A stretch of 64,000 nucleotides of DNA, taken from positions 96,551-160,550 of the forward strand of contig JACQJR010000002.1 in NCBI GenBank assembly GCA_016204995.1, in the 5' to 3' direction. Position numbers and translations under genes: made by a program. Shown here in pieces: positions 4,645 to 56,145 of the stretch; position 1 is the stretch's first letter; the number at the start of each line of letters is the position of its first letter. A model generated the notes under the pieces. The model ran no database searches. It was not told where the DNA came from and saw only the letters and a list, made by a program, of their open reading frames with translations. This DNA is from Candidatus Microgenomates bacterium (GTDB lineage: Bacteria; Patescibacteriota; Microgenomatia; UBA8517; JACQJR01).

Positions 4645-6149
4645 ATGGCAGTCTTCTTTTTTAATTTTACCCTAGCTTTCCTAAGCCAAGATTTCTTAAT
4701 CTTATATCCATCCTGTTTGTCTTCTACCGCATAGCCCATCTGTTCTAACGCCTGGCGGATTTTATCTGACTCTTTCCACTTTCCTTCTTTCCTTAAGACC
4801 TCTCTTTTTTCCACCAATTCCGTAATTTCTACTGGTAATTCTAATGATTTACCTAAATATTTTTCTAATCCTAACCCTAGAATTTTATCCATCTTTAAAA
4901 TATCCTCCCCATTTCCTTTTTTCACCGCTTCCCAAAAAACGGCCATAGCTTGTGGCACTCCTAAGTCATTATTAAGAGCCTCCATAAATTTATCCATCAT
5001 TCCACTACCACTACTTTTTACATCTCTTACTGTTACTCTTAAATTATTTAATGCATTTTGAGCTGCTTGCAAACTATCCCAGGTAAAATTTAATTTATCC
5101 CGGTAGTGAGCAGTTAAAAATAAATAGCGCAAAGCCAAAGGGTCAAAACCACGTTGTTTAATATCTGCTAAAGTGTAGACATTACCCAAACTTTTACTCA
5201 TCTTTTGCCCATCAACTAAAACAAATTCATTATGTAACCAAAATTTGACAAATTCTTTCCCTGTTGCCGCTTCCGATTGGGCAATTTCGTTAGTGTGGTG
5301 TATTGGAATATGATCAATCCCGCCAGTATGGATATCTATAGTTCGACTTTGCTCACCACGAAAATTACCATTTTCGAATGCATCTCCTAAATATTTCATG
5401 GCCATGGCCGAGCATTCAATATGCCAACCCGGAAAACCATAAGTTTGTCTAAACTCTGTAGGAACCCTACTCCAATTCTCTCTTTTAACAAGCTGGCCCG
5501 CGAAAGGACCCTCAAACCACCAATTCATTTGTCGCATTGGCAAATCAATCTTTGCTGGCTCAAATTTCCACAGAGCAAAGTCAGTCGGATTTTTTTTACC
5601 TTCTACCATTTCTACCCTAACCCCAGGTTGAATACCATCCTTACCGCCGGCGAGTTGTCCGTAATTGGAAAACTGTGAAGTATCAAAATAAATTCCATAA
5701 TTAGTTTTATAAGTAAAGCCTTTTTCTTCCAATGTTTTAATTAATTGAATCATTTCTTGAATGTTATCCGTAGCCCGCACTAAAGTTGGCTGCTCAATAT
5801 TTAAAGCATCCAAGTCTGCTAAAAATTCAGCCGTATATTTTTTTGCAATCTCCCAGACTGAAATTCTTTCCTTATTTGCCTCATATTCCAACTTATCTTG
5901 TCCTAATCTTGGCTCTTCTCCTTCCTCAAATAAATGACCCACATCAGTAATGTTCATCACATTCATTACTTTATAACCATTAATCTCTAATGTTTTCCTT
6001 AAAATATCTACAAAAACATAAGCTCGCAGATTACCAATGTGAGGACTGGAGTAAACCGTCGGGCCACAGGAATAAATTCCTACTTTGCTATCTTCTAGCG
6101 TAACGAATTCCTCCAACTTCCTTGTTTTGGTATTATAGAGCCTTATCAT
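4641..6149 (-). CDS. cysS: cysteinyl-tRNA synthetase
   Basis: HIGN class I motif (PHIGNLRAY), KMSKS (KMSKSLGN), CysS zinc-site cysteines. Confidence 0.9.
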   Translation of the reverse strand: MIRLYNTKTRKLEEFVTLEDSKVGIYSCGPTVYSSPHIGNLRAYVFVDILRKTLEINGYKVMNVMNITDVGHLFEEGEEPRLGQDKLEYEANKERISVWEIAKKYTAEFLADLDALNIEQPTLVRATDNIQEMIQLIKTLEEKGFTYKTNYGIYFDTSQFSNYGQLAGGKDGIQPGVRVEMVEGKKNPTDFALWKFEPAKIDLPMRQMNWWFEGPFAGQLVKRENWSRVPTEFRQTYGFPGWHIECSAMAMKYLGDAFENGNFRGEQSRTIDIHTGGIDHIPIHHTNEIAQSEAATGKEFVKFWLHNEFVLVDGQKMSKSLGNVYTLADIKQRGFDPLALRYLFLTAHYRDKLNFTWDSLQAAQNALNNLRVTVRDVKSSGSGMMDKFMEALNNDLGVPQAMAVFWEAVKKGNGEDILKMDKILGLGLEKYLGKSLELPVEITELVEKREVLRKEGKWKESDKIRQALEQMGYAVEDKQDGYKIKKSWLRKARVKLKKKTAI

Positions 6150-7245: not shown

Positions 7246-7524
7246 TTATCCACCTAGAAGCCCTGATAATCCGCCGCCCATTTCTTGAAGTTTTTTAGCG
7301 GCCACTTTTTGTGATTCTTTTAAGGCTTTATTAACTGCTTCCACGACATTTTTTTGTTCTTCCCCGTCAATCGTTAAACCTTGAATTTGCTGGTCACCGC
7401 GCATGACTACTTTAACATTGCGCTCCTCCACTGTAATGGTTTCTTGCTGCAAAACCTTTTGCATCTGCATGGCCTGATCCCGCAACTGCTTTAGTTTTTT
7501 GAGCTGTTGAAATTTGTCAAACAT
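7246..7524 (-). CDS. ybaB: nucleoid-associated protein YbaB/EbfC
   Basis: 92-aa protein with the YbaB-family pattern. Sits in the conserved dnaX-ybaB-recR arrangement. Confidence 0.8.
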   Translation of the reverse strand: MFDKFQQLKKLKQLRDQAMQMQKVLQQETITVEERNVKVVMRGDQQIQGLTIDGEEQKNVVEAVNKALKESQKVAAKKLQEMGGGLSGLLGG

Positions 7525-7594
7525 AAATTTAGGTTATTAGGTTACTGGGCTATTAGGCTCTTGGGCCTAATACTAATTATATCATAGTTGAAAA

Positions 7595-10699: not shown

Positions 10700-11952
10700 A
10701 TTAATCTTTTAATTGCTTCCTCTATGCTAATTAATTCTGTTTTTTCTTCTCCCCGATTTTTCCACTCCACTTGATCACCCGTTTTAGCTGACACTACCAG
10801 TCTGACGGGAATGCCTATTAAATCACAATCGGCAAATTTTTCGCCGGCTGACACATCTTCTCTATCATCCCATAAAACTTCAATTCCCACCTCTCGCAAT
10901 TTTTCGTAAACTAGTTCTCCGGAAAGTTTTAAGTTTTGAGATGTAGTTTTGCCATTTGCCATTTGAGATTTGAGTTCTATAAGATTAACATCATAAGGAG
11001 CAACTGATTTAGGCCAGATAATTCCCTTGTCATCATTATGAACTTCTACGATTGTTCCCAGAAGTCTGCTAATGCCAATACCGTAGCAACCCATAATCAC
11101 GGATTTTTGACTACCATCTTTATCCTTAAAAGTTAAGCCAAAGGCATCAGAAAATTTAGTTTTCAAGGGAAAAATATTACCTACTTCAATAGTCTTAACT
11201 TTTTTTAATGGCCCATGGCCTAAATCACATTCTTTGCCTGCGGCAACCTCGGCAATTTCGGTATTTTGAGAAAAATCCCCACCTGCACAATAAATAATTT
11301 CATCTTCACCTGCTTCGGTAATAACTTGGTATTCATGGGAAAATTTACTAAAAGCACCGCCACTGGCTTCGGTTAATATGGCGTCTAGTCCACATCTGGT
11401 AAACACAGCGCTATATGCTTCCTTCATCCGCTCATAATATTTTTCAAAGTCCTCTTCAGTGGTATGAAAGCTATATAAATCTTTCATTAAAAATTCCCGG
11501 CCGCGCAAAATTCCACTTTTAGCCCGTGCTTCGTCGCGAAACTTATTTTGAATTTGGTAAAGATAAAGAGGCAAATCCTTGTAAGAACTGATAAATTGGC
11601 CAACCAATGGGACAACAACTTCTTCGTGGGTGGGTCCCAAAGCATATTCTGTTTCTTGACGACTCTTGACTTTAAAAAGTGCGTCAAAATTATTCCACCG
11701 GTCGGTTTTCTCCCAACTGGCTTTATTTTGCAAGGCACTTAACAAAATTTCCTGCCCGCCGGCTTTATTCATCTCGTCCCGAACAATGTTCGTAATTTTA
11801 TTAAGGACTTTAAGACCTAATGGCAAAAAATTATAAACTCCAGCTACTTCTTTACGGATAAATCCACCGCGGGTCAAAAGTTTGGCATTAACAGAAACTT
11901 CATCCTTGGGATCTTGTCTAATCGTTTTTCCAAAAAGCTGTGAATATCGCAT
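10696..11952 (-). CDS. proS: prolyl-tRNA synthetase (short form lacking editing domain)
   Basis: Class II aaRS motifs and a ProS-specific N-terminus (MRYSQLFGKTIR). Only 418 aa, so no INS editing domain. Confidence 0.85.
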   Translation of the reverse strand: MRYSQLFGKTIRQDPKDEVSVNAKLLTRGGFIRKEVAGVYNFLPLGLKVLNKITNIVRDEMNKAGGQEILLSALQNKASWEKTDRWNNFDALFKVKSRQETEYALGPTHEEVVVPLVGQFISSYKDLPLYLYQIQNKFRDEARAKSGILRGREFLMKDLYSFHTTEEDFEKYYERMKEAYSAVFTRCGLDAILTEASGGAFSKFSHEYQVITEAGEDEIIYCAGGDFSQNTEIAEVAAGKECDLGHGPLKKVKTIEVGNIFPLKTKFSDAFGLTFKDKDGSQKSVIMGCYGIGISRLLGTIVEVHNDDKGIIWPKSVAPYDVNLIELKSQMANGKTTSQNLKLSGELVYEKLREVGIEVLWDDREDVSAGEKFADCDLIGIPVRLVVSAKTGDQVEWKNRGEEKTELISIEEAIKRLI

Positions 11953-24439: not shown

Positions 24440-24883
24440 TTGATTATGGAGCACCTCAACGGCCACCAAGAACACCCCCATTTTATTAATACTTTTAGAG
24501 AAATAAAAAGCATATTAACCGAGCTTTTGCCTAATGATAAAAAATCTTTTGGTAAAGTAGTTTTAAAAAGACAAATAGGTTTAACTATTTACGAAAAGGA
24601 GCTGCCGGAAGAAGTAGGTGTCGCAGCTACCAAGCTAAACCAAGACTTATTTCTTCTTCGCCTGACCGAGGCGCATCAAGGCGTTGCTACACCTATAAAT
24701 TTAATTTTATTTTATGTCACCCCAGATAATTTATTAACCGCTACCTATCTGGATCGGGAAGATAAATATCCACCAAAAAATATATTTAATGATTTTCCCA
24801 ACGCAATTTTTACTTTACAAATCCTTAGGGTTATCCAGCAAAAACAGATCAATTCGCAAAGTACGATTCTAATACCTGTTTAG
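24440..24883 (+). CDS. hypothetical protein
   Basis: 147-aa ORF. No domain recognised. Confidence 0.35.
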   Translation: MIMEHLNGHQEHPHFINTFREIKSILTELLPNDKKSFGKVVLKRQIGLTIYEKELPEEVGVAATKLNQDLFLLRLTEAHQGVATPINLILFYVTPDNLLTATYLDREDKYPPKNIFNDFPNAIFTLQILRVIQQKQINSQSTILIPV

Positions 24884-26474
24884 TTATCGGCGCGGCCACC
24901 GACGATCCCTCACCGCCTCCTTCCACAATAGAGGTGACTACAATTTCTGGATTTTCTGCTGGCGCGAATGATGTAAACCAAGCGTGAGCTTTCTTTTTAT
25001 CATCCCCGAATTCAGCCGTTCCGGTTTTGCAAGCCACCGGCACTTTGAAATTAAAAAATACTCCTGCAGTTCCCCCGGGACTGCAAGCCCCGATCATCCC
25101 CTGTCTAATAACCTCAATCGTCTTCTGTTTTAATCCAATATCCTCACATTGGAAATTGGAAAGAAGCGAAGCTTGGCCTTTCAGGCTTGGAAATTGGAAA
25201 TTCTGCAAATCATCTTGCTTCATTATATGAGGAATGCACTTTTTACCACCTGATGCTATTATCCCAGTCATTACTGCTATCTGTAAGGGAGTCGCGGCAA
25301 CATCTCCTTGCCCAATTGCCATATGATAAGTATTACCCAAAAACCAACGTTCGCCCCGATTTCTTTCTTTCCAATCCGGGGTGGGAATTATACCGGCGGT
25401 TTCTCCAGTAAGTTCAACATTAGTTTTGGCTCCTAGCCCAAATTTTTTGGCCCACTCGGCTAACTTTTCCACCCCCACCCATTCACCCACCTTATAAAAG
25501 AAAGTATCTGTGGAACGGGTAATGGCGCTGACTATGCCAATTTCTCCTTCGGTCCGGCCGTATTTAGTAAAATACCAGTTATTATATTTAAAAGTCCCCA
25601 CCTGAATAAAACCGTTATCGGTAAATTTAGTAGTTTCATCTACTTTACCTTCTTCCAATCCTGCTGCCGACACTACTATTTTAAAAGTAGAACCAGGCGG
25701 GTAACTTCCACCAATGGCCCGATTAAATAACGGCTGATCGGGGTTAGCAATTAAACTGGCATAATTTGTGGCAAAATTATTGGGGTCAAACGATGGATAA
25801 GAGACTAAAGCTAATATTTCACCAGTGCCAGGATTTAATGCCACTACCGCTCCCTTTCGTTCTCCTAGAGCCGCTGCCGCTGCCTGTTGTAAGAACAAAT
25901 CAATTGATAATTTAACATCTTGTCCTTTTTGGGCCTCGCGCCGGCCCAACACCCGTACTTTGTTGCCTCGGCTATCTACTTCAACCAGCTCTTCTCCATT
26001 TTTACCCCGCAATAAACAATCAAAGGCGCTTTCTGCTCCTATTCTGCCAATTTCATCACCGATTTGATAAACGCTATTCGGGCATTCCGATTGGCCTAAT
26101 TCTTCACGAGTTGCTTCCCCGACATAACCAACTAAATGTGCTGCAACTGTTGCGACCGGATAAGTCCTATCCCAAACCAAAATAGCTACATCATTCTCCG
26201 AATCTTTAATTTCTTGGCCATCTATTAATGAAGCTGCTTTACCCGCTTCAAAATGTAAAATTTTTTTTGTCTGGCTATTTTGAGCCAATGGCATTCCATT
26301 ACGATCCAAAATTAAACCCCTTGGAGCGTGAATAGGAATAGCCCTAATTCTATTATTACGAGCTAAAGTTTGATAATAACCACCCCTGATTAAAGAAACA
26401 TCAATTAAACGAGCCGCCAGCACTAAAAAAATAATTAACGTGGCAATGGTCAACAAGCTTTTTCTCCACTCCAT
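24849..26474 (-). CDS. penicillin-binding protein 2/FtsI-type transpeptidase
   Basis: N-terminal TM anchor, SxxK (STFK), SxN, KTGTA motifs. Confidence 0.85.
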   Translation of the reverse strand: MEWRKSLLTIATLIIFLVLAARLIDVSLIRGGYYQTLARNNRIRAIPIHAPRGLILDRNGMPLAQNSQTKKILHFEAGKAASLIDGQEIKDSENDVAILVWDRTYPVATVAAHLVGYVGEATREELGQSECPNSVYQIGDEIGRIGAESAFDCLLRGKNGEELVEVDSRGNKVRVLGRREAQKGQDVKLSIDLFLQQAAAAALGERKGAVVALNPGTGEILALVSYPSFDPNNFATNYASLIANPDQPLFNRAIGGSYPPGSTFKIVVSAAGLEEGKVDETTKFTDNGFIQVGTFKYNNWYFTKYGRTEGEIGIVSAITRSTDTFFYKVGEWVGVEKLAEWAKKFGLGAKTNVELTGETAGIIPTPDWKERNRGERWFLGNTYHMAIGQGDVAATPLQIAVMTGIIASGGKKCIPHIMKQDDLQNFQFPSLKGQASLLSNFQCEDIGLKQKTIEVIRQGMIGACSPGGTAGVFFNFKVPVACKTGTAEFGDDKKKAHAWFTSFAPAENPEIVVTSIVEGGGEGSSVAAPITKQVLESYFAN

Positions 26475-26509
26475 GGCTTAATTGTACATGACTCTACAAC
26501 TACTACTTC

Positions 26510-26632
26510 CGCCGATACTTACTTTTCGCCTTAGTAAATTCTTACTGCGGCTCAAGGAGCGTTATCATGGCGGGTGCGGGGCAACTATGAAACTAGTTGC
26601 CCCTTGACGACATTTTGGCTTTAGTCTATAAC
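26510..26632 (+). promoter_or_regulatory. Element X copy 1: structured leader repeat ending in a sigma70-like promoter (TTGACG-N17-TATAAC) upstream of pyrG
   Basis: Hairpin AGTAA-attc-TTACT, conserved GCGGCTCAAGGAG..ATGGCGGGT, hairpin GGGGCAACT..AGTTGCCCC, then -35 at 26604 and -10 at 26627. Near-identical inverted copy at 55595-55722. Confidence 0.5.
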
Positions 26633-26647: not shown

Positions 26648-28279
26648 ATGAAGTTCATTTTTGTAACTGGAGGAGTAATTTCTGGTATCGGCAAGGGCAT
26701 CGCCACTGCCACTCTTTCCCTTCTCTTAAAATCGCGGGGCTTAAAAGTTTCTCCTATTAAATTTGATCCATACTTAAATGTGGATGCCGGCACCATGAAC
26801 CCTACCGTCCATGGCGAAGTTTTCGTATTGGACGATGGCACGGAATGCGATCAAGATTTAGGACACTATGAAAGATTTTTAAATGAGTCATTAAGCAAAC
26901 AAAATTACGCCACCAACGGCCAGATTTATTTATCAGTCATTGAAAAAGAACGCGCTTTTGAATTTGAAGGAAAGTGCGTGGAAATTGTCCCTCATGTGCC
27001 GGAAGAAATTATTAGGAGAATCTTTGCGGCAGGTCGTTCCCGTAATGCCGATGTGGTGCTATGCGAAATTGGCGGCACAGTTGGTGAATATCAAAATGCC
27101 CTCTTTTTAGAAGCTAATCGGATGCTGAAACTAAAATATCCCAATGATGTCATCCACACCCATGTAACTTATTTACCAATTCCCGCCTCTATCGGCGAGA
27201 TGAAATCCAAACCGGCCCAACTGTCAGTCCGCTTGTTAAACAGTGTCGGCATCCAGCCGGATTTTATTTTGGCCAGGAGCGAGAAACCAATTGATCAAGT
27301 CCGTAAAGAAAAGTTGGCCATCGCCACCGGGGTAGTGCCGGAAAATATTATTTCAGCCCCCGATGTAGATTCAATTTATAAAGTACCGCTTAATTTTGAC
27401 AAAGAGGGACTCACCGACAAAATTTTAAAAAATCTTAAAATCCGGGCTCCTAAAAAGGATTTAGTAGAATGGCGGTCGTGGGTAGAAAAATCAACACAGG
27501 CCGTCCAAAAGGTTAAAATTGGCATTGTCGGCAAATATTTTGCAACCGGCGATTTCGTTTTAGCTGATTCTTACGTTTCAGTCATTGAAGCTATTAAACA
27601 CGCTGCAGGATTTTTAGGCGTCTCACCGCAGATTACCTGGATTGATTCGGCCGATATCACTAAAAATGGCACTGAAACTTTATCGGGCTTTGACGGTATT
27701 ATTGTCCCTGGAGGTTTTGGGGCGCGCGATATTGAAGGTAAAATTGGCACCATCAAATTTTGCCGGGAAAAGAAGGTGCCGTATTTAGGCTTATGTTTTG
27801 GCATGCAGCTGGCTTGCATAGAATATGCCCGGCATGTTTTGAAATTGACTGGCGCGAGTTCTACCGAGATTAATCCCAAAACAGTTTATCCTATTATTCA
27901 CATCATGCCGGATCAAAAGAAAAAATTACTGGCTCGGGAATATGGTGGAACAATGAGGCTGGGCAGTTGGCCTTGCAAAGTTAAAGCCGGAACGGCGACT
28001 TGGAATGCCTATAAAGATGCTAAATATAAACTGCCACTGATTAACGAACGCCACCGTCACCGCTATGAATTTAATAATGAATTTTTAGAAAAATTTCTCA
28101 CTAATGGTTTGACTGTTTCTGGAACCACGCCAGATGGAAAACTGGTAGAAATTATTGAACTAAAAAATCATCCCTTTTTCGTCGGCACTCAATTCCATCC
28201 CGAGCTGCGCTCCCGCCCCTTGGCTCCCCATCCCTTATTTACTTCCTTTATCCAAACCGCCAACAATTTACAAAAATAA
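26648..28279 (+). CDS. pyrG: CTP synthase
   Basis: N-terminal synthetase domain (GGVISGIGKGI) and C-terminal class I glutamine amidotransferase domain (GLCFGMQ, HPE). Confidence 0.9.
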   Translation: MKFIFVTGGVISGIGKGIATATLSLLLKSRGLKVSPIKFDPYLNVDAGTMNPTVHGEVFVLDDGTECDQDLGHYERFLNESLSKQNYATNGQIYLSVIEKERAFEFEGKCVEIVPHVPEEIIRRIFAAGRSRNADVVLCEIGGTVGEYQNALFLEANRMLKLKYPNDVIHTHVTYLPIPASIGEMKSKPAQLSVRLLNSVGIQPDFILARSEKPIDQVRKEKLAIATGVVPENIISAPDVDSIYKVPLNFDKEGLTDKILKNLKIRAPKKDLVEWRSWVEKSTQAVQKVKIGIVGKYFATGDFVLADSYVSVIEAIKHAAGFLGVSPQITWIDSADITKNGTETLSGFDGIIVPGGFGARDIEGKIGTIKFCREKKVPYLGLCFGMQLACIEYARHVLKLTGASSTEINPKTVYPIIHIMPDQKKKLLAREYGGTMRLGSWPCKVKAGTATWNAYKDAKYKLPLINERHRHRYEFNNEFLEKFLTNGLTVSGTTPDGKLVEIIELKNHPFFVGTQFHPELRSRPLAPHPLFTSFIQTANNLQK

Positions 28280-31573: not shown

Positions 31574-33637
31574 ATGCCACAAAAACTAATTGCCTTTTTC
31601 TACTACGCTTTGTTTTTCTTTACTCCGCTTTTATTTAATAAAGCCAACTCCGAACTTTTTGAACTGCCAAAAATGTACTTTGTCTGGGTAATTACTATTA
31701 TCATTGTCAGCTTGTGGCTAGTTAGAATAATCGCCGAAAAGCGAGTTATTTTTCAGCGAACATTTTTAGATATTCCTCTAATTTTATATCTAATATTTCA
31801 ATTAATTAGCACCTACTTTTCAATTGATCAATACACTTCTATTTGGGGATATTATTCCAGACTTAACGGCGGATTGATATCAACTATTAGCTATTTACTA
31901 CTTTATTGGGCCTATATTTCAAATTTAACCACCCAAAATACCCTATCTGCTCTTAAATTCCTGTTAATTTCTGGTTTACTAGTAGCTTTATGGGGGATTC
32001 CTAGTCATTTTGGCTATGACCCGAATTGTGTTCTTTTTGGCTACAACCTAACCACCAATTGCTGGAGCACCCAATTTGTACCAACTGAACGCATCTTTTC
32101 CACTTTGGGTCAACCAAATTGGCTGGCCAACTGGCTCGTAGCGCTCATGCCATTAACTTGGGCCATGTTTTTCACCTCTAAGATCAAAAATCTAAAATCT
32201 AAAATCTTTTATCTATATTTAAGTCTTATCCTAATAATAGCTATCATCTTCACCAGAAGTTCCTCCGGTTTTCTGGGATTAGTGGTAGCATTAGTAGTTT
32301 TTACCACCCCGCAAATTCTACACTTATTCAAGAAGGGGAAATTTCTTGTTTGGTTAACAATCTTACCCATTTTAACTATGTCTATATTTTTTGTGCAAAA
32401 ATTACCCAAAGTTGTCAATGGACTAAAATCTTGTACAGAAATTTTGACTTCTGAAGGCGAGTCGCACATTAATAGTAATATTACTCCTTCTAGTGACATC
32501 CGCTGTATTGTCTGGAAGGGTGCTTTTGATATATGGCGGCATTATCCATTAATTGGTAGTGGGCCGGAAACTTTTGCTTATTCCTATTACCAATTCCGTC
32601 CGGCTATCCATAACTTAACCAGCGAATGGGACTTACTTTATAATAAAGCCCATAATGAGTATCTTAATTTCTTGGCTAATAGTGGCCTAGCTGGTTTAAC
32701 AACATATTTAATTTTAATTATTATGGCTTTTTGGCTATTAGGCTCCTCGGCTCTTAGGAAAAACCCAACAGCCCTGCCTGCGCAGGCAGGCCAACGGCCT
32801 AATGCCCTAATAGCCTGGGGTTTACTCGCTGGTTTTGCCAGCCTTCTCGTCACCAACTTTTTCGGCTTTTCCGTCGTTGCCACTCAACTGCAATTTTTCT
32901 TATATCCGGCAATGGTGATAGGGCCACTGGGCTCTTGGGACGCTAGGCAATCGGACAATCAAAGGCCTAACGCCCTTCAAGTCATTTTAATTTTTCTAGT
33001 ATTATTTATTACCATCTTTCTGTTAGTTAAAATCTATCATTATTACCAGGCCGATCTTCATTACAGCCGGGCCCAAACTTTAGAAGATAATCAACAATAT
33101 GTGGATTCATTATCCGAAATTAGAAAAAGTCTCAACCTGCGACCAAATGAGCCATTATATAAAAACGAATTATCAGTTATTCTTTCATCGCTATCATTCT
33201 TAACTGCCAAAACCGATAGTGATCTTAGCGCCCAAATGACCAATATTGCTATCACATCTTCCGATCAAGCGCTAGCAACTTCGCCCTACAATCTTAATTT
33301 TCTCAAAAGTCGGGCCAGTATGTTTATTAAACTCTCCCAGCCGCAAGAGGCGATCAAAACCTTAGAATATGCCCAAAAACTCGTCCCTACCGAGCCCAAG
33401 ATTGCTTATAATCTAGGTCTAACCTATATACAACTGGATCAAAATGATCAAGCCATTCAGGAGTTTAAAAAAGCTACTCAACTTCGCCCCTTATACCGCG
33501 ACGCCTGGTTAGCACTCGGACTGGCCCAGTGGCAAAAAGGTGATAAAACTACCGCCCGCCATACTTTAAATTACATTTTGCAAAATATTGACTCCCAAGA
33601 TAAAGAGGTTCTAGAACAGCTCAAAAAGTGGAAATAA
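31574..33637 (+). CDS. O-antigen ligase (Wzy_C)-like polytopic membrane protein with C-terminal TPR repeats
   Basis: Many TM helices, a large periplasmic loop, C-terminal TPR-like repeats. Contains the in-frame palindrome CCTGCCTGCGCAGGCAGG (LPAQAGQ) and 9-mer repeat inserts. Confidence 0.5.
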   Translation: MPQKLIAFFYYALFFFTPLLFNKANSELFELPKMYFVWVITIIIVSLWLVRIIAEKRVIFQRTFLDIPLILYLIFQLISTYFSIDQYTSIWGYYSRLNGGLISTISYLLLYWAYISNLTTQNTLSALKFLLISGLLVALWGIPSHFGYDPNCVLFGYNLTTNCWSTQFVPTERIFSTLGQPNWLANWLVALMPLTWAMFFTSKIKNLKSKIFYLYLSLILIIAIIFTRSSSGFLGLVVALVVFTTPQILHLFKKGKFLVWLTILPILTMSIFFVQKLPKVVNGLKSCTEILTSEGESHINSNITPSSDIRCIVWKGAFDIWRHYPLIGSGPETFAYSYYQFRPAIHNLTSEWDLLYNKAHNEYLNFLANSGLAGLTTYLILIIMAFWLLGSSALRKNPTALPAQAGQRPNALIAWGLLAGFASLLVTNFFGFSVVATQLQFFLYPAMVIGPLGSWDARQSDNQRPNALQVILIFLVLFITIFLLVKIYHYYQADLHYSRAQTLEDNQQYVDSLSEIRKSLNLRPNEPLYKNELSVILSSLSFLTAKTDSDLSAQMTNIAITSSDQALATSPYNLNFLKSRASMFIKLSQPQEAIKTLEYAQKLVPTEPKIAYNLGLTYIQLDQNDQAIQEFKKATQLRPLYRDAWLALGLAQWQKGDKTTARHTLNYILQNIDSQDKEVLEQLKKWK
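32772..32789. repeat. 18-nt perfect palindrome CCTGCCTGCGCAGGCAGG in-frame in the Wzy-like membrane protein
   Basis: Encodes ALPAQAGQ. Flanked by GGCCTAATGCCCTAATAGCC 9-mer repeats. Confidence 0.6.
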
Positions 33638-33843
33638 TGACAAAAACTTTCCGACCTGCGCTTCGCCGAAGACTCAGGCAAGGCGAGTCGCAAATAAAAT
33701 GTCAAGTCTAAATTAGCTTTTAGACTTAGTTGAATTGTCTTGGTCAAATTATACTACTAGAGGCTTAAGAAGCAAATTTTGCCAAGCCCGCCAAAAGCTA
33801 CGCATTTTTGCGGGTCCGCCATAATACGAAGTTTTAGGCGGAG

Positions 33844-33936
33844 AAAAGGCACCTTGGGGAGATATAAAAAATTTAAATCGCGTTTTGCGACAAATTTATA
33901 TATCACCTTACGGTGCCTTTAAGTATTCAGTTGTGG
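33844..33936 (+). repeat. Element Y copy A (structured repeat AAAAAGGCACC...AAATATCACC..GGTGCCTTT + TATTCAGTTGTGG)
   Basis: Outer stem GGCACC/GGTGCC encloses an internal AT-rich stem and a TCGC-gtttt-GCGA hairpin. About 85% identical to copy E at 58149. Confidence 0.6.
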
Positions 33937-35424: not shown

Positions 35425-35610
35425 TTACCACCACGACAAAATACTGCCTAGCATAAACAAACCAGTTACCATGAGTAACCCGGACACGATCGCCCCAAGG
35501 GGCCCCCAATTTCGAAGAGCATCGACCAAAAGAAGACCTCCCAGTACCACTAAAACAATAGCCATAGCGGTTACTCCAAAGGGATTCATTTTCTGTTCCT
35601 TCCTGTACAA
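35425..35610 (-). CDS. small membrane protein (GC-rich)
   Basis: 61 aa with 2 TM helices. RBS AGGAAGG. Confidence 0.4.
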   Translation of the reverse strand: MYRKEQKMNPFGVTAMAIVLVVLGGLLLVDALRNWGPLGAIVSGLLMVTGLFMLGSILSWW

Positions 35611-35639
35611 CTAATGTTAAGGTACCGCCCTCCGTAACT

Positions 35640-35700
35640 TAGCTTTCACCTTACCTACTATTCGTAGCGCGACTCAAGCTGCGTTTGCTGACGGGCTATG
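35640..35700 (+). repeat. Element X copy 4 (degenerate) upstream of the DUF3800 gene
   Basis: CTAC-tattc-GTAG hairpin followed by GCGCGACTCAAGCTGCG. Aligns with the X consensus, but the hairpin arms are swapped. Confidence 0.35.
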
Positions 35701-35841
35701 CTTGTTTTAGACCCAAAGATAGATCGGCTTTTGACCTCCTTTAAACCTAAATTATGCTTAATTAGTATTGTACCACTTAACTATGAGATAAGCAAATTTG
35801 AAGTTATTGCAATAAGAGAATAAACGACAGTAAAATTAAAC

Positions 35842-36456
35842 ATGAAATTTGTTATTATTGATGAAAGTGGACGTTTATTTGACCCCAATGATAGATTTCT
35901 AATATTTGCAGCAGTTGTCACTGATACACTTGTTAACCTTGATAAAATCATACCTTCTGTTAAGAAAACACTACCCAGAAAGATAAAAATTGCAGAAATT
36001 AAATTCTCTAAAACTGGAGATAGAACCAGATTGAAAATACTTAAAGAAATTCACAGCAGGAAACTAAAACTATTTATTCTGGTAATTGATAAGGAAGGAC
36101 GAAAAATTAAAGATACTCCTGAAAATTATTCACTGTTAATAGCTACTCTGCTGAAGAAAATTATGAAGCGATACTCTACCACTTCACACATTTTAATAGA
36201 TAAACATTTCACTTGGGTGACTCAAAGAGAGAAATTCAATAAAAATATCCAGAAAATTTTGGCCCGTTCCTTATTTATTGAACATCTTGATAGCCAACAA
36301 AATACCATTGTTTCTTTGCCTGATTTCGTAGCAGGCGCAATCCGTGTTAGTTATACTAAAAACCAAAAATATTTCGCAGAAATAATAAATGATTTAATTG
36401 AAGAACAAATAGTTACAACCTGGAGGAAAATTAAACAAAAAATGGTAAAAGCTTAA
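35842..36456 (+). CDS. DUF3800-family protein
   Basis: N-terminal IIDESG motif and C-terminal SLPDFVAGAIR (DUF3800 'QLADFVAG' signature). AT-rich. Confidence 0.55.
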   Translation: MKFVIIDESGRLFDPNDRFLIFAAVVTDTLVNLDKIIPSVKKTLPRKIKIAEIKFSKTGDRTRLKILKEIHSRKLKLFILVIDKEGRKIKDTPENYSLLIATLLKKIMKRYSTTSHILIDKHFTWVTQREKFNKNIQKILARSLFIEHLDSQQNTIVSLPDFVAGAIRVSYTKNQKYFAEIINDLIEEQIVTTWRKIKQKMVKA

Positions 36457-39898: not shown

Positions 39899-40149
39899 CC
39901 TCCTTTTCGACCAGATAAAGCCTTAGGGCATATTTACCCCGAACTCCTCCTAATCAGGCTTGCGGCTCGCTTGGTGAGCTGGAAAAACGTGATGGCCAGT
40001 ACCGCAATGACAAATATCACCGTCAGTATCGCTATGGACAGGATCACCAGGACCACGAAGAGGAAACCCATCTCCATGTTCAATATCAAATCCTCCAGCA
40101 TTTTTCTCCTTACAACTGAAATGTCAACGTGCCTTTGACCTACCTAATC

Positions 40150-40230
40150 TTACCTTTCGTCTTAGTAGATTTCTACTGCGACTCAAGGAGTGATTTATGG
40201 CGGGTCTGCATCACAAATTGCGATGCAATT
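40150..40230 (+). repeat. Element X copy 3 upstream of def
   Basis: AGTAG-attt-CTACT hairpin (compensatory relative to copy 1), GCGACTCAAGGAG..ATGGCGGGT, then a hairpin GCATC..GATGC with different sequence but the same structure. Confidence 0.45.
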
Positions 40231-40365
40231 TATTCTTTGAAAAAGCGCTTTTAAGACTTGCTTATTGCCCTAAGCCTCTTTTCCCAAGTTATGCTATTAT
40301 ATTACAAACTATGGGATTATTCAAAAAATTAGCAATTAGCAAGCAAAATTGGTAAAATACATGCT

Positions 40366-40959
40366 ATGAGTGTCCAGAAAATTTTGACAGTGCAGAATCC
40401 GGTTTTGCGGACATCGGCTAAAAAAGTCACCCAATTTGATAAACGAATTGAACGGTTAATCACTGATTTAATTGATACTTTAAAAGTGCAAAAAGACCCC
40501 ATCGGAGTCGGTCTTGCTGCTCCTCAAATTGGCAAGTCCATAAGACTTTTTGTCGCTAAATTGGGTAAGGATATTATTCCCTTTATAAATCCGGAAATTA
40601 CTTGGAAATCTGAAAACACTAACGACCCAAAACCAACTAAACGTTTTCCTAAGAGCCTAGAAGCCCAAGAGCCCATAAGCCCCGAATACATCATGGAAGG
40701 ATGTCTGTCTCTTCCCCATTTTTACGGCCCAGTCCAGCGGGCCCACCAAGTCACAGTTCGTTATCAGACTCCAAAATTGGAAATTGGAAATTGGAAATTG
40801 GAAATTACGACGAAGTCGTTTAGTGGGCTGGCCGCGCAAATTATTCAACACGAAACAGACCATTTAAACGGCACATTATTTATTGATAATTTACTTCATC
40901 AAAAGCGTAAACTTTATAAATGGGAAGGCAAAGAATGGGAAGAAGTGGAATTACCGTAG
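40366..40959 (+). CDS. def: peptide deformylase
   Basis: Motifs GVGLAAPQIG, EGCLS, HETDHLNG. Contains in-frame repeat-derived inserts (KSLEAQEPISP, and a (GGAAATT)n tract encoding KLEIGNWKLEI). Confidence 0.85.
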   Translation: MSVQKILTVQNPVLRTSAKKVTQFDKRIERLITDLIDTLKVQKDPIGVGLAAPQIGKSIRLFVAKLGKDIIPFINPEITWKSENTNDPKPTKRFPKSLEAQEPISPEYIMEGCLSLPHFYGPVQRAHQVTVRYQTPKLEIGNWKLEITTKSFSGLAAQIIQHETDHLNGTLFIDNLLHQKRKLYKWEGKEWEEVELP

Positions 40960-41004
40960 GCAATTCAGGGCGTTAGGACATTAGGTATTTAGGCTCTTAG
41001 GCAT

Positions 41005-41367
41005 ATGAGCGATTTTACCAAATTAAAAATATGGCAGAAATCTCACGAATTATCATTGGAGGTTTATCATCTTACTGCAAAACTACCTAAAGAAGAAACT
41101 TTCGGCTTAATGTCACAGTTACGCCGAGCAGCAGTATCAGTAGAATCTAATATTGCCGAGGGCGAATCAAGATTTAGTAGTAAGGATAAACTAAATTTCT
41201 TTATCCAAAGTCGCGCATCTATCGGCGAGGTCCAGACACAATTACTTTTAGTAGCTGATTTATATCAGCAATTAAAGAGTAAAGCTTTACAATTAAAAGA
41301 AGAATATACTAATCTTTATAAACAAATAAATAGTCTTGTTTCTTATAGAAGAAAAAACGATTTATGA
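41005..41367 (+). CDS. four-helix-bundle protein (23S rRNA IVS protein family)
   Basis: KLKIWQKSHELSLEVYHLT..QLRRAAVSVESNIAEGESRFS family pattern. Inserted between def and fmt. Confidence 0.65.
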   Translation: MSDFTKLKIWQKSHELSLEVYHLTAKLPKEETFGLMSQLRRAAVSVESNIAEGESRFSSKDKLNFFIQSRASIGEVQTQLLLVADLYQQLKSKALQLKEEYTNLYKQINSLVSYRRKNDL

Positions 41368-42431
41368 ACCCTAACAGCCCAAGAGCCCTGCCTGCGCAGG
41401 CAGGCCAACAGCCCAAGAGCCCTCCTCTCGTTTTTTTCAGCACACCAGACTATGTGCTGCCAGTATTGGAACAGCTAAAAAATGCCGGTTATGAAATTGC
41501 AGCTATTGTTTCCCAGCCACCCAAACCAGTTGGCAGGAAACAAATTTTAACACCAACTCCTACTGCTGTTTGGGCTAGCCAAAATAACATCCCCAATCTT
41601 GATGCTTCACCTAAAACTTTAATTGAACCTTTACAAAAAATTGGCGCGACCATTGCCATTCTGGCTTCCTACGGCCGGATTATTCCGCAGGCAATTATTG
41701 ATGTTTTTCCACAAGGCATCTTAAATATTCACCCCTCACTTTTACCAAAATTTCGCGGTGCTTTACCGGTAGAAGGAGCATTGGTAGCAGGCGAAAGCGA
41801 AACCGGCGTGACTATTATCAAATTGGATGCCGAAATGGATCATGGTCCCATTGTTTCTCAAATTACCGAAAAAATTAATAAGGATGACACTAAAATTACT
41901 TTAAGAAAAAGATTATTTGAAAAAGGGGCCGCTGAATTAATTAAAGTCTTACCAGACTACTTAGCTGGCAAAATCGCACTGCAAGAACAAGATCACACTC
42001 AAGCTACTTATACCACTTTGATGAAAAAAGAATACGGCTTTATCCCGCCGCAATATTTGGAAGCTGCATTTAAAGGTGAGACTTTAGAGGAAAAATGGCC
42101 CATCCCATTCATAAAAGACTTTTCCCTAGTACCTAGTGCCTATTCCCTTCACAATTTTATCCGTGCTATTAACCCCTGGCCCGGAGCATACACTGAAGTA
42201 ATACTACCAATAAATACCAATACTACCAATAAGCAAAGCTTGGCCCTTCGGGCTAATTACCAATCAACTAAAAAAAGATTAAAAATTCTGAAATCTCACT
42301 TAGAAAACCTAGTAGCCCAAGAGCCTAATGCCCCAACAGTCCACTTAGTGCCTGACTTGGTCCAATTAGAAGGCAAAAATCCCGTTTCTTGGCAACAATT
42401 TAAACAAGGCTACCCCAACTTCACTTTCTAA
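41364..42431 (+). CDS. fmt: methionyl-tRNA formyltransferase
   Basis: Formyltransferase core (NIHPSLLPKFRGALPV) and a C-terminal Fmt domain. The N-terminal extension contains the CCTGCCTGCGCAGGCAGG palindrome (ALPAQAGQ). ATGA overlap with the upstream gene. Confidence 0.85.
   Translation: MNPNSPRALPAQAGQQPKSPPLVFFSTPDYVLPVLEQLKNAGYEIAAIVSQPPKPVGRKQILTPTPTAVWASQNNIPNLDASPKTLIEPLQKIGATIAILASYGRIIPQAIIDVFPQGILNIHPSLLPKFRGALPVEGALVAGESETGVTIIKLDAEMDHGPIVSQITEKINKDDTKITLRKRLFEKGAAELIKVLPDYLAGKIALQEQDHTQATYTTLMKKEYGFIPPQYLEAAFKGETLEEKWPIPFIKDFSLVPSAYSLHNFIRAINPWPGAYTEVILPINTNTTNKQSLALRANYQSTKKRLKILKSHLENLVAQEPNAPTVHLVPDLVQLEGKNPVSWQQFKQGYPNFTF
41387..41404. repeat. 18-nt perfect palindrome CCTGCCTGCGCAGGCAGG in-frame at the fmt N-terminus
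   Basis: Encodes ALPAQAGQ. Flanked by CAGCCCAAGAGCCC repeats. Confidence 0.6.
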
Positions 42432-48159: not shown

Positions 48160-48720
48160 ATGAAGATTAAAGATTTTCGTGAGCGACCGCTCCTATTCAT
48201 TGATTTAGAAATGTCCGGCCTTAATCCTTTGATCCATGAAATTTTAGAAGTTGGGGTATTAGTAGTAGATGGCAAGACTTTGGGAATAAAAGCCGAGTAT
48301 GAAGCCAAAGTCAAACCAGAACATATTGAAACTGCCGATCCGCTGGCCCTGCGTATCAATGGCTATAAAACAGAAAACTGGAAAGACGCTAAACCATTAA
48401 AAAAAATTTTAGAAGATTTAAATAAACTGGCCCCCGAGGGCATGATTGTTGGTTTTAACGTCGTCTTTGACTCCATGTTTTTAGATTTGGGATTTCGTAA
48501 ATTTAATATCAAGCCCAACTTTGATTACCATATTTTAGATGTCTTAAGTTTGGCCTGGGCTTATGTTTTACCTGACAGTAACGTCCACGAAGTAAAACTA
48601 TCAACTCTTTGTAAACATTTTGGCATTGAGCGAAAAGAAAAACACCGGGCGTTGGCAGATATTAAGGCGACATACGAGCTTTTTACAAAGCTCATGGGCA
48701 TTAGGCAATTGGGTAATTAG
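48160..48720 (+). CDS. DEDDh 3'-5' exonuclease (DnaQ/epsilon-like)
   Basis: Exo I (LFIDLEMSGLNP..EILEVG), Exo II, Exo III (HRALADIKATYELF). Confidence 0.75.
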   Translation: MKIKDFRERPLLFIDLEMSGLNPLIHEILEVGVLVVDGKTLGIKAEYEAKVKPEHIETADPLALRINGYKTENWKDAKPLKKILEDLNKLAPEGMIVGFNVVFDSMFLDLGFRKFNIKPNFDYHILDVLSLAWAYVLPDSNVHEVKLSTLCKHFGIERKEKHRALADIKATYELFTKLMGIRQLGN

Positions 48721-48982
48721 GCTATTAGGTTTTCTGACCTAGGAGCCAAAGAGCCTAACGCCCTAAAAGCCTATTACTCCAGCTTTCTACAAATTCTTTC
48801 CGATCGCAAATAAAACAAATAAAATGTCAAGTTTCAGGTGTCCTACCTAAACCACCTCTAAGGTGATTAATCCTTGACACCTATTTAACCAAAGAAAAAA
48901 GCGCTCTTGGTATAAAACCCATCATTAAAAAATGATGTCCGATTACTCGGCAAGAGCGCTTACTAATTTAGTTGCGAGATTG

Positions 48983-55219: not shown

Positions 55220-55246
55220 GGTTCGGCAAGCTCACCACAGTACATT

Positions 55247-55270
55247 AAAAAAGCGCTCCACCGAGCGCTC
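55247..55270 (-). terminator. rho-independent terminator/attenuator in the rplJ leader
   Basis: Minus-strand AGCGCTC-GGTG-GAGCGCT hairpin followed by TTTTTT, about 28 nt upstream of the rplJ ATG. Confidence 0.45.
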
Positions 55271-55445
55271 AAAGATCTAAATTCTAATATCTAAAATCTA
55301 GATGAGGTGCCTCGGTGAGATTTATTACGTTCATGTAACTGAACGTAACTCACTGTCTTAAGCTTTCATTTATTTTAACACACAAAGGCCCCTGTTGCAA
55401 GTTGCACACAAGGGCCGCCGAGAAGTCAAGTCCGGCGAAGCCGGG

Positions 55446-55553
55446 CTATTCCTCCTCCTCTTCCTCATCCTTTTTCTCTTCTTCCTCCTCCTCTTCCTCT
55501 TCATCCTCATCTTCATCATCAGCTAATTTCATTACGACATCATCTTGCATCAT
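55446..55553 (-). CDS. possible acidic leader micro-ORF (35 aa: MMQDDVVMKLADDEDEDEEEEEEEEEKKDEEEEEE)
   Basis: Not in the track. Strong SD AGGAGGTG 7 nt upstream. Directly downstream of the Element X copy 2 promoter, upstream of the structured rplJ leader. Confidence 0.3.
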   Translation of the reverse strand: MMQDDVVMKLADDEDEDEEEEEEEEEKKDEEEEEE

Positions 55554-55594: not shown

Positions 55595-55722
55595 GGACAC
55601 AGTATAAAAATGAGCCTCTCGTCTGTCAAGGGGCAACTGTGCAAGCAGTTGTCCCGCACCCGCCATGATAACGCTCCTTGAGCCGCAGTAAGAATTTACT
55701 AAGGCGAAAAGTAAGTATCGGC
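55595..55722 (-). promoter_or_regulatory. Element X copy 2 (inverted) with sigma70-like promoter (TTGACA-N17-TATACT) reading toward rplJ
   Basis: The reverse complement is near-identical to copy 1 over ~100 nt, including the GGGGCAACT..AGTTGCCCC hairpin and the CTCAAGGAGCGTTATCATGGCGGGTGCGGG segment. Confidence 0.5.
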
Positions 55723-55849
55723 AGGAAGAGAGCAAAAATTTCCCACTTGACAGAGTTACGACTTATTTGATACCTTCTTGTACAGTCTTTCCGCCTTTTC
55801 CGGCGAAGCCGGATTCGGCGAGACAAGTCCCGCCCACTAGAAAGTCATA

Positions 55850-56064: not shown

Positions 56065-56145
56065 AAAGGCTCCTTGGCTCTTAGGCTACTAGGCTCTTTG
56101 GTAAAATTCTTCCTAATGACCTAATAGCCCAATGCCCCAAAAGCC
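56065..56145. repeat. tandem degenerate 9-11-mer repeats (GGCTCTTAGGC / GCCTAATAGCC family)
   Basis: GGCTCCTTGGCTCTTAGGCTACTAGGCTCTTTGG...CCTAATGACCTAATAGCCCAATGCCCCAAAAGCC. The same family occurs at 7528-7575, 32735-32765, 40963-41002, 44822-44892, 48698-48775 and in-frame in def, fmt and the Wzy-like gene. Confidence 0.5.

What the first reader, a model, noticed from the sequence alone, without database searches (positions are those of the whole stretch)
26510..26632. Element X: promoter-carrying structured leader repeat placed ahead of pyrG, def, DUF3800 and the rplJL leader
Four copies sit at 26510 (+), 40150 (+), 35640 (+, degenerate) and 55595 (-). They share a 5-bp hairpin whose arms co-vary (AGTAA/TTACT, AGTAG/CTACT, CTAC/GTAG) and the block GCG(A/G)CTCAAGGAG-N6-7-ATGGCGGGT. 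A second hairpin follows whose sequence differs but whose structure is kept (GGGGCAACT..AGTTGCCCC versus GCATC..GATGC). In copies 1 and 2 a textbook sigma70 promoter (TTGAC(G/A)-N17-TATA(A/C)(C/T)) follows immediately. All copies are in sense orientation relative to the downstream gene. The embedded AAGGAG + ATG GCG GGT looks like a conserved ribosome-binding site plus start of a micro-ORF (MAGAGQL* in copy 1). That suggests either a leader-peptide regulatory device or a mobile promoter cassette.
Basis: seen in the sequence. Interest (0 to 1): 0.55.

Follow-up and report, generated by a model that had tools for sequence, protein, structure and literature searches.

The report
Portable structured hairpin repeat of Microgenomates
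The four "Element X" copies are real members of an undescribed family of ~70-nt rod-shaped hairpins in Microgenomates (candidate phyla radiation) bacteria; the family moves between non-coding regions and is kept by selection in the leaders of rRNA, tmRNA, nusA and dnaK, but it carries neither a leader peptide nor its own promoter.

Summary
Observation confirmed. Four copies lie at 26506-26576(+), 40137-40206(+), 35626-35697(+) and 55657-55727(-). There are no others in the window, and no Rfam family matches.

Each copy is one long rod hairpin, usually followed by a second hairpin. In 24 copies from 17 loci, 15 of 23 base pairs show compensatory changes (0/500 shuffles reach this).

The AAGGAG and ATG of the proposed micro-ORF are just the 3' strands of two helices. 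They are replaced, with compensation, in other copies, so the leader-peptide idea fails.

The promoters after copies 1 and 4 are ancestral. Relatives that lack X keep the same -35/-10 boxes at the orthologous pyrG and acidic-ORF/rplJ loci. X therefore did not bring these promoters, and at these two loci it sits upstream of them. Copies 1 and 4 are 99% identical, which suggests recent spread.

In Gottesmanbacteria the same element is clearly transcribed and conserved. It lies in the 16S leader 230 nt below a perfect promoter, before tmRNA, in the nusA leader and in the grpE-dnaK spacer. It always ends just before the mature 5' end or the ribosome-binding site.

Best reading: a portable REP/Correia-like structured repeat whose transcribed copies act as RNA processing, stability or insulation hairpins. 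The exact mechanism is untested.

The parts
26506..26576 (+). X copy 1 (type A rod hairpin), between the divergent PBP2 gene (24849-26474, -) and pyrG (26648-28279, +)
   Evidence: CM R1 93.6 bits, R2 81.4 bits. MFE -40.4 kcal/mol with hairpin 2, z -4.6. 99% identical to copy 4.
26578..26603 (+). Hairpin 2 of copy 1 (GGGGCAACTA-loop-TAGTTGCCCC), abutting the pyrG -35 box
   Evidence: Folds (z -3.7). Differs from copy 4 by a compensatory A-T to G-C change and a different loop.
26604..26632 (+). pyrG promoter TTGACG-N17-TATAAC. Adjacent to the repeat but not part of it (ancestral).
   Evidence: Read. The X-less relative L111 has TTGACG-N17-TATAAA in the same place.
55657..55727 (-). X copy 4 (type A), between two back-to-back promoters: HTH gene 55850-56062 (+) and the small acidic ORF / rplJ side (-)
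   Evidence: CM R1 94.7 bits. Sequence. The orthologous site in L136 lacks X.
55630..55655 (-). Hairpin 2 of copy 4 (GGGACAACTG-loop-CAGTTGCCCC)
55601..55629 (-). Promoter TTGACA-N17-TATACT for the small acidic ORF (55447-55552, -). Ancestral, not carried by X.
   Evidence: 11/12 match. CCCCTTGACA-N17-TATACT plus a homologous acidic ORF are present in L136 without X.
40137..40206 (+). X copy 2 (type A), between a small hydrophobic ORF (39934-40101, -) and def (40366-40959, +)
   Evidence: CM R1 86.2 bits. MFE -33.9 kcal/mol, z -5.4. Compensatory changes relative to copy 1 in P1b, P3 and P4.
40207..40227 (+). Hairpin 2 of copy 2 (TGCATC.C...G.GATGCA)
35626..35697 (+). X copy 3 (type B apex CCUAC-UAUUC-GUAG; P1a and P3 partly broken), between a small hydrophobic ORF (35425-35610, -) and DUF3800 (35842-36456, +)
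   Evidence: CM R1 66.5 bits, R2 57.5 bits. AAGGAG is replaced by AAGCUG with a compensating G on the 5' strand. The same apex type occurs in L121, L117 and L119.

Best explanation
Element X belongs to a previously uncatalogued family of small, portable, hairpin-forming intergenic repeats in Microgenomates (candidate phyla radiation, CPR). It is comparable in kind to REP, ERIC and Correia elements.

The unit is a ~70-nt imperfect rod: P1a CCCGCC/GGCGGG, P1b variable, a UUA/AGCG internal loop, P2 CCUU/AAGG, P3 GCC/GGC, and P4 with an AUUY loop. A second, more variable hairpin usually follows.

Shown: the family spreads and exchanges between non-coding sites. When a copy lies inside a transcript it is the sense-strand RNA hairpin, and at some loci it is held by purifying selection. 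Those loci are the 16S leader, the tmRNA precursor, the nusA leader and the grpE-dnaK spacer. There it always ends right before the mature 5' end or the Shine-Dalgarno sequence.

Inferred: these transcribed copies act as double-stranded RNA processing, 5'-end-definition, stability or folding-insulation cassettes. For example, an RNase III-type enzyme could cut in the rod and leave hairpin 2 as a protective 5' stem.

In this window, copies 1 and 4 are young insertions placed immediately upstream of pre-existing -35 boxes. They are probably not part of the pyrG or acidic-ORF mRNAs. Copies 2 and 3 are older, diverged copies in divergent promoter regions.
For: Structure:
- 24 distinct copies give 87% of cells paired, 15 of 23 pairs with changes on both sides, 63 such cells, and covariation score 0.338 against 0.06-0.10 for slid registers; 0/500 shuffles reach this (19 copies; the 4 window copies on an independent MAFFT alignment).
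- The UC/UC internal loop becomes Watson-Crick pairs in the nusA copies of L132, L133 and L134. In L132 the dnaK-leader position holds an unrelated rod with the same foot and the same hairpin 2. A long helix, rather than the loop sequence, is what is kept.

Transcribed and sense-oriented:
- L123 has a 12/12 promoter at 2793-2820, then a boxA-like GCTCTTTGAAAA, then X at 3051-3120, hairpin 2, and 16S from 3144.
- L114 has X at 29-98, hairpin 2, and tmRNA from 151.
- L135 X starts 6 nt after the grpE stop, and two X-hairpin modules fill the grpE-dnaK spacer.
- The nusA leaders of five Gottesmanbacteria keep the order promoter (11/12, TG-extended), GNRA hairpin plus U7, X, hairpin 2, ATG.

Selection: between L124 and L125, X is 96% identical, against 60-64% in flanking non-coding DNA and 71-81% in coding DNA.

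Portability:
- There is no X in 70 kb around pyrG in four relatives.
- Orthologous X-less sites keep the flanks and promoters.
- L136 has a diverged copy elsewhere, at 11143-11218.
- Copies 1 and 4 are 99% identical.
- The same X + hairpin 2 + ATGCCNGCNACA leader heads nusA in L124 and lexA in L126.
- Subtypes A and B coexist within genomes, and different subtypes occupy the same nusA site.

Precedent: Correia elements can create promoters at their ends and can be bound, cleaved or protected by RNase III (PMC2649163 abstract).
Against: - No transposase, target-site duplication or terminal signature was found, so the means of spread is unknown.
- Covariation could reflect what the element needs to propagate rather than a host function.
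- Several unpaired nucleotides are nearly invariant (UU of CUUA, C of UC, the AUU loop, GC of AGCG). A generic dsRNA nuclease would not require that; it hints at a specific partner.
- No cleavage or transcript-end data exist.
- Copies 1 and 4 lie upstream of conserved promoters, so an RNA-level role does not explain them.
- In L122/L119 and L121 the element is antisense to the surrounding transcription, so orientation is not absolute.
- The metagenome sample was fished with a pattern that requires the conserved core. Alignments A4 and A5 are fitted to the model, which inflates apparent conservation.
Confidence: 0.5

Rival explanations
1. X is a dedicated cis-regulatory leader RNA bound by one specific factor: an RNA-binding protein, RNA polymerase (put/EAR-like processive antitermination), or a global small-molecule signal. 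It would coordinate rRNA, tmRNA, nusA, dnaK, lexA and other housekeeping units as a regulon. Its mobility would be incidental.
For: Internal-loop and apical-loop nucleotides are nearly invariant across subtypes. The downstream set is enriched in growth and housekeeping functions. In the 16S leaders, hairpin 2 is followed by U8, like a terminator to be overridden. The layout of a conserved aptamer-like rod plus a variable second hairpin recalls riboswitch architecture.
Against: A canonical boxA-like sequence already sits upstream of X in both 16S leaders. Hairpin 2 has a U-run only in the 16S cases. The UC/UC loop is dispensable. X is absent from the same genes in relatives. Copies 1 and 4 are upstream of their promoters. 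Antisense copies exist.
Confidence: 0.15
2. For the window copies, X acts at the DNA level. It would be an upstream promoter module (cruciform, supercoil sink or protein-binding site) placed directly against the -35 box, possibly supplying or reshaping the -35 region.
For: In copies 1 and 4 and in L113, hairpin 2 ends with ...GCCC(C) immediately followed by TTGAC and a -10 box at 17 bp. Copy 4 sits exactly between two back-to-back conserved promoters. TTGA is invariant after all four window copies.
Against: Compensatory base changes are not expected for a duplex protein-binding site. The rod is too mismatched for easy cruciform extrusion. The promoters work without X in relatives. Most family members have no promoter after hairpin 2 and are inside transcripts.
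Confidence: 0.1
3. X is a purely selfish miniature transposable element with no host function. The hairpin is conserved only because the mobilising enzyme needs it.
For: Patchy distribution and empty orthologous sites. Near-identical copies within one genome. Occasional opposite orientation.
Against: X is 96% conserved at the orthologous nusA site while the flanks are 60-64%. It is retained at nusA in five genomes and at dnaK in L135, L133 and L115, with a replacement rod at that site in L132. Its position is precise, directly before functional RNA starts. No target-site duplication, terminal repeats distinct from the stem, or transposase was seen.
Confidence: 0.15
4. One reading: a leader-peptide attenuator (AAGGAG + ATG GCG GGT micro-ORF), or a mobile cassette that carries a complete sigma-70 promoter.
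For: In copies 1, 2 and 4 the AAGGAG-N7/8-ATG arrangement is present, and a short ORF can be read.
Against: Neither the ATG nor the AAGGAG is conserved in the family. Both lie in helices and change with compensation. The ORF length and sequence are not conserved. The promoters are ancestral to the loci, and homology between copies 1 and 4 stops at the -35 box.
Confidence: 0.02

Closest known systems
Correia repeat-enclosed elements (CREE/NEMIS) of Neisseria
   Same: Both are short, interspersed, hairpin-forming intergenic repeats that land next to promoters. Correia elements are co-transcribed with neighbouring genes and, as RNA hairpins, can be bound, cleaved or protected by RNase III (PMC2649163). 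Both show presence/absence differences between related genomes.
   Different: Correia elements have defined terminal inverted repeats, a TA target duplication and an IHF site, and can themselves create promoters. None of these was found here. X is conserved across genera with compensatory changes, and it sits directly before the mature 5' ends of stable RNAs.
REP/BIME and ERIC (IRU) elements of enterobacteria
   Same: Both are transcribed extragenic palindromes present in many copies. They influence mRNA processing and stability through their hairpins (own knowledge; general review PMC2229807).
   Different: REPs are shorter, mostly 3' of genes, carry the GTAG signature and are tied to RAYT transposases. 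X is mostly 5' of genes, and no RAYT was seen.
RNase III processing signals (phage T7 R1.1-type hairpins; rRNA leader/trailer stems; E. coli nusA-infB and rplJL-rpoBC sites)
   Same: Both are irregular hairpins about 25-33 bp long with internal loops, placed between cistrons or before mature RNA ends. In L119 a leader X module and an inverted trailer module, 75% alike over 120 nt, bracket the 16S gene like a processing stem.
   Different: Cleavage is untested. RNase III signals are not normally a mobile sequence family, and they do not share invariant loop nucleotides.
Putative mobile promoters (Matus-Garcia et al., PMC3488235)
   Same: Both are homologous upstream regions found in front of unrelated genes within and between genomes.
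   Different: In X the shared unit excludes the -10 box, and at the tested loci the -35 box is ancestral. What is shared is a structured hairpin, not a promoter.
put (HK022) and EAR processive-antitermination RNAs
   Same: Both are cis-acting structured leader RNAs just downstream of promoters, made of stem-loops supported by covariation (own knowledge).
   Different: There is no sequence or Rfam similarity. X is multi-copy and mobile, occurs between cistrons and in trailers, and coexists with a canonical boxA.

Membership tests
Any Rfam 15 family | Covariance-model score at or above the family gathering threshold | tested here: not met
   The whole window at gathering threshold gives only 4 tRNAs. 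Permissive scans of copies 1, 3 and 4 give nothing better than Glutamine-II at 10.5 bits, E 2.9. The 15 metagenome loci give only rRNA, tRNA and tmRNA.
Leader-peptide attenuator | Conserved start codon, ribosome-binding site and reading frame of the small ORF | tested here: not met
   The ATG is present only in window copies 1, 2 and 4. Elsewhere it is AAG, TTG, CTG, AGT or ATT, and AAGGAG varies with compensation.
Mobile promoter cassette | -35 and -10 hexamers lie inside the repeated unit and arrive with it | tested here: not met
   Homology between copies 1 and 4 ends at TTGAC. X-less relatives have the same promoters. Most copies lack a following promoter.
MITE / Correia-like element | Presence/absence polymorphism at orthologous sites and multiple similar copies per genome | tested here: met
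   Empty sites at pyrG (L111) and at the acidic ORF (L136), and no X upstream of def in L111, where synteny differs. Four copies in 64 kb, two of them 99% identical. Three copies in 8 kb of L119.
MITE / Correia-like element | Target-site duplication and distinct terminal inverted repeats; cognate transposase | tested here: inconclusive
   No direct repeats flank copies 1 or 4 by eye, but the relatives are too diverged to fix the junctions. No transposase search was done.
Structured RNA under selection | Compensatory base changes beyond shuffled and slid controls; higher conservation than flanks at an orthologous site | tested here: met
   (0/500 shuffles; slid registers 0.06-0.10 against 0.338). 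(96% against 60-64%).
RNase III processing signal | About 20 bp or more of helix; specific cleavage by RNase III | not testable with these tools
   The helix length requirement is met: 23 pairs in a 33-step rod. Cleavage needs an experiment.
rrn boxA (Nus factor) antitermination site | Single-stranded GCUCUUUAACAA / UGUUCUUUGAAAA-like box in the leader | tested here: not met
   X's CGCCUUAG is base-paired and co-varies. A separate GCTCTTTGAAAA box lies upstream of X in L123 and L119.

The most novel reading that the evidence does not exclude
X plus hairpin 2 is a dedicated, genome-wide 5'-end maturation and insulation cassette of CPR bacteria, a natural counterpart of the synthetic RiboJ insulator. 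It would be recognised by a specific, still unknown ribonuclease or RNA-binding protein, or be self-cleaving. It would define the 5' ends of 16S rRNA, a 23S fragment after an insertion, tmRNA and key mRNAs. It would copy itself to new loci, possibly through RNA intermediates.
Probability: 0.12. Interest if true: 0.8.

Novelty: new variant of a known kind. Interest (0 to 1): 0.5.

Why it matters
Almost nothing is known about non-coding RNA, promoter architecture or RNA maturation in CPR bacteria, which cannot be grown alone. This family gives a concrete handle with strong covariation support. The same portable hairpin sits immediately before 16S rRNA, tmRNA, a 23S exon that follows an insertion, nusA and dnaK. 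It could reveal how these reduced genomes process stable RNAs and polycistronic messages, and how small structured repeats are recruited for host functions. It also supplies a ready covariance model for annotating Microgenomates genomes. Finally, it is a warning that SD-like and ATG-like strings inside helices are not micro-ORFs.

Tried and rejected
- Rfam at gathering and permissive thresholds found no family.
- A genome-contig scan with CTCAAGGAGN{5,9}ATGGCGGGT gave 110 hits, all chance. One per unrelated, mostly high-GC genome; many were a conserved protein-coding ...NLKELGYGG C-terminus. That pattern relied on the non-conserved ATG.
- A viral-contig scan gave 0 hits.
- Looking up the window's own contig by pyrG failed; it is not on record.
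- Literature searches for a prior description in Microgenomates, Gottesmanbacteria or CPR found nothing.
- Ideas examined by eye and dropped:
  - A sigma-54 promoter in the GGCGGG...GC region: spacing fits only copy 1.
  - A sigma-70 promoter inside X: the candidate -10 box lies in the co-varying P4.
  - A K-turn at the UUA/AGCG loop: there is no GA on the 5' strand.
  - boxA mimicry: the region is paired, and a true boxA lies elsewhere.
  - SD/anti-SD mimicry as the function: lost in several copies.
  - The antisense strand as the functional RNA because UC/UC would become tandem GA: the loop is Watson-Crick in the nusA copies of L132-L134.
- The G-U versus A-C count for strand choice was indecisive outside P4: 10 against 6.
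- Sigma-70 scans upstream of the window copies found no sense promoter.

Full report
**1. What is in the window**

Reading the four sites and aligning them shows one shared unit of about 70 nt.

A covariance model built from the four copies finds them at 55657-55727(-), 26506-26576(+), 40137-40206(+) and 35626-35697(+). Scores are 94.7 to 66.5 bits. With filters off, nothing else in the window is credible. A second model built from 19 copies gives the same answer.

Simple patterns occur far more often than in shuffles. Copies 1 and 4 are 99% identical over 76 nt.

The window comes from a Candidatus Microgenomates bacterium. Its CTP synthase is 100% identical to an NCBI protein of that name, and the next relatives are Daviesbacteria-like.

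All four copies lie in divergent intergenic regions:
- PBP2 | pyrG
- small hydrophobic ORF | def
- small hydrophobic ORF | DUF3800
- HTH gene | small acidic ORF, then the L10 leader and rplJ

**2. Anatomy**

From the base upward it consists of:
- P1a, CCCGCC/GGCGGG
- P1b, 4-5 variable pairs
- an internal loop, UUA/AG(C/U)G
- P2, CCUU/AAGG
- a 2x2 loop, UC/UC
- P3, GCC/GGC
- a U/C mismatch
- P4, 6 pairs in most copies (type A), capped by AUUY

The 'AAGGAG' is the 3' strand of P2. The 'ATGGCGGG' is the 3' strand of P1a. A second hairpin follows within 1-3 nt in copies 1, 4 and 2.

**3. Relatives elsewhere**

A first pattern based on AAGGAG...ATGGCGGGT retrieved only chance hits from 185,579 species genomes. 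In hindsight this is because the ATG is not a family feature.

A pattern based on the 5' half and centre retrieved 15 metagenome contigs. The model confirmed every one (56-89 bits), and L119 holds three copies.

Protein-guided fetching then added Gottesmanbacteria loci with further, more diverged copies.

**4. Covariation**

On 24 distinct copies:
- 87% of cells are paired.
- 15 of 23 pairs change on both sides, in 63 cells.
- The covariation score is 0.338, against 0.06-0.10 when partners are slid by 1-3 columns.
- No shuffle out of 500 reaches any of the measures. The 19-copy set is, and the four window copies on a plain MAFFT alignment are.

Caveats: alignments A4 and A5 are fitted to the model, and the metagenome sample was fished with a core pattern.

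There are subtypes. Type A has the apex UAGNNN-AUUY-NNNCUG. Type B has CCUAC-UAUUC-GUAG. Both occur within single genomes: A, A, A, B in the window and A, B, B in L119.

In the nusA copies of L132, L133 and L134 the UC/UC loop is replaced by G-C and C-G pairs, giving a continuous 9-bp helix. In L132 the dnaK-leader position holds an unrelated rod with the same foot and the same hairpin 2. What is preserved is therefore mainly a long helix. Even so, several unpaired nucleotides are nearly invariant.

**5. The micro-ORF and ribosome-binding-site idea fails**

The ATG is AAG, TTG, CTG, AGT or ATT in other copies.

AAGGAG becomes:
- AAGCUG in window copy 3
- GUGUUG in L119:580
- ACGGAG in L119:453 and the L135 dnaK copy
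- AUGCUU in the L133 dnaK copy
- CAAAGAG in the nusA copies of L132-L134

In each case the 5' strand changes in compensation.

**6. X is transcribed, in the sense orientation, and under selection in other genomes**

- *16S rRNA.* In L123 a 12/12 sigma-70 promoter (2793-2820) is followed by a boxA-like GCTCTTTGAAAA. X lies at 3051-3120, then a hairpin with U8, and 16S starts at 3144. L119 has the same layout with two tandem X copies.
- *tmRNA.* In L114, X and hairpin 2 end 3 nt before the tmRNA 5' end.
- *23S rRNA.* In L120, X and hairpin 2 occupy the last ~110 nt of a ~900-nt insertion carrying a LAGLIDADG ORF, at 23S position ~2500. They run right up to the downstream exon.
- *nusA.* Five Gottesmanbacteria share the order promoter (11/12, TG-extended), GNRA hairpin plus U7, X, hairpin 2, ATG. 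This holds even where the upstream genes differ.
- *dnaK.* In L135, X begins 6 nt after the grpE stop codon. Two X-hairpin modules fill the grpE-dnaK spacer and end at the Shine-Dalgarno sequence. L133 and L115 have a copy at the same site.
- *Selection.* Between L124 and L125, X is 96% identical, while flanking non-coding DNA is 60-64% and coding DNA 71-81%.

The module therefore always ends immediately before the functional start of the downstream RNA.

There are exceptions to orientation. An inverted module lies after the 16S 3' end, before a terminator, in L119 and L122. In L119 it is 75% alike over 120 nt to the leader module, so the two could bracket 16S like a processing stem. An inverted copy also follows a tRNA in L121.

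**7. Portability, and the status of the window copies**

Four relatives with pyrG 68-81% identical have no X in 70 kb around pyrG.

At the orthologous PBP2-pyrG spacer, L111 keeps the left flank (CAATTGTAC) and the promoter (TTGACG-N17-TATAAA, then GAGGGC). It has different DNA where X and hairpin 2 lie in the window.

At the orthologous HTH | acidic-ORF locus, L136 keeps both back-to-back promoters, including CCCCTTGACA-N17-TATACT, and a homologous acidic ORF. It lacks X. L136 does hold a diverged copy elsewhere, at 11143-11218.

The promoters after copies 1 and 4 are therefore ancestral and probably functional. X was not their source, and X lies upstream of them. With 99% identity between copies 1 and 4, recent spread is the simplest reading.

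Further signs of module exchange:
- In other genomes the same X + hairpin 2 + ATGCCNGCNACA leader heads nusA (L124) and lexA (L126).
- Different X subtypes occupy the same nusA site while the flanks stay orthologous.

**8. Mechanism**

Shown: a mobile or portable structured element. It is transcribed and selected at several key loci, and positioned directly before functional RNA starts.

Inferred: an RNA-level role as a double-stranded processing, stability or insulation hairpin. This fits the rod length, the leader, intercistronic and trailer positions, tolerance of either orientation, replacement by unrelated rods, and the Correia/RNase III precedent (PMC2649163).

It does not explain the invariant loop nucleotides, nor the two window copies that lie upstream of promoters. 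For those, a neutral young insertion or a DNA-level effect on the promoter remains open.

Antitermination is less likely because a canonical boxA is already present. A metabolite riboswitch is unlikely given the gene set and the dispensable loop.

**9. Novelty**

No Rfam family and no paper in the searched library describes this element. It is best filed as a new variant of the known class of small structured intergenic repeats. It is unusual in its cross-genus conservation and in its position before stable-RNA 5' ends in CPR bacteria.

Noticed in passing
window 32725-32815, 48694-48775, 56067-56145; half-arms at 7529-7569, 40644-40687, 40965-41013, 41373-41416, 42302-42339: A second repeat family. 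Runs with 8-nt period (TTAGGCNN) on one arm and GCCTAANN on the other form long imperfect hairpins, sometimes around a CCTGCGCAGGCAGG palindrome. Several flank four-helix-bundle (23S rRNA IVP-like) ORFs such as 41005-41367.
   Followed up: partly
window 55447-55552 (-): A small, extremely acidic ORF (MMQDDVVMKLADDEDEDEEEEEEEEEKKDEEEEEE) with its own 11/12 promoter lies between copy 4 and the L10 leader. A homologous acidic ORF with the same promoter exists in relative L136 at 7305-7433, so it is probably a real gene.
   Followed up: partly
window 55238-55380 (-): A ribosomal protein L10 leader match at 39.6 bits (gathering threshold 44, E 7e-5), preceded by a second promoter-like site at 55372-55400.
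   Followed up: partly
L135 9781-9856 and the same place in L132, L133, L134, L125: The nusA leader of Gottesmanbacteria has a conserved TG-extended promoter followed about 25 nt later by a GNRA-capped hairpin plus U7, upstream of X. This looks like a leader terminator and recalls NusA autoregulation in other bacteria.
   Followed up: partly
L120 1016-1915: A ~900-nt insertion in 23S rRNA at E. coli position ~2500 with a LAGLIDADG ORF at 1124-1732 (a further LAGLIDADG-like ORF lies upstream at 127-753). The upstream exon can be read to end in U and the insertion in G, as in group I introns, yet Rfam reports no intron. A further IVP-like ORF follows at 2257-2622.
   Followed up: partly
L119 683-4454: The 16S gene spans about 3.8 kb with several insertions, including an IVP-like ORF and a LAGLIDADG ORF. 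It is bracketed by a leader module (446-563) and an inverted trailer module (4784-4905), 75% alike, followed by a terminator.
   Followed up: partly
L124 2137-2201 and L126 10922-10985: nusA and lexA in different genomes share the whole leader after X, including the first four codons (ATG CCN GCN ACA, MPAT). This suggests transfer of a 5' UTR together with the start of the coding region.
   Followed up: no
window 26475-26486 (-), 40353-40368 (+), 35831-35844 (+): Several -10-like boxes sit only 5-7 nt from start codons: TACAAT 6 nt before the PBP2 ATG (8 nt before it in L111), TAAAAT 7 nt before the def ATG, and TAAAAT 5 nt before the DUF3800 ATG. This hints at leaderless mRNAs.
   Followed up: no
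window 33813-33844 (-): A short hairpin with the same foot as X (CCGCC...GGCGG) but no interior, scoring 13.8-15.6 bits. CCGCC/GGCGG stems also form terminator-like hairpins next to X in other loci.
   Followed up: no
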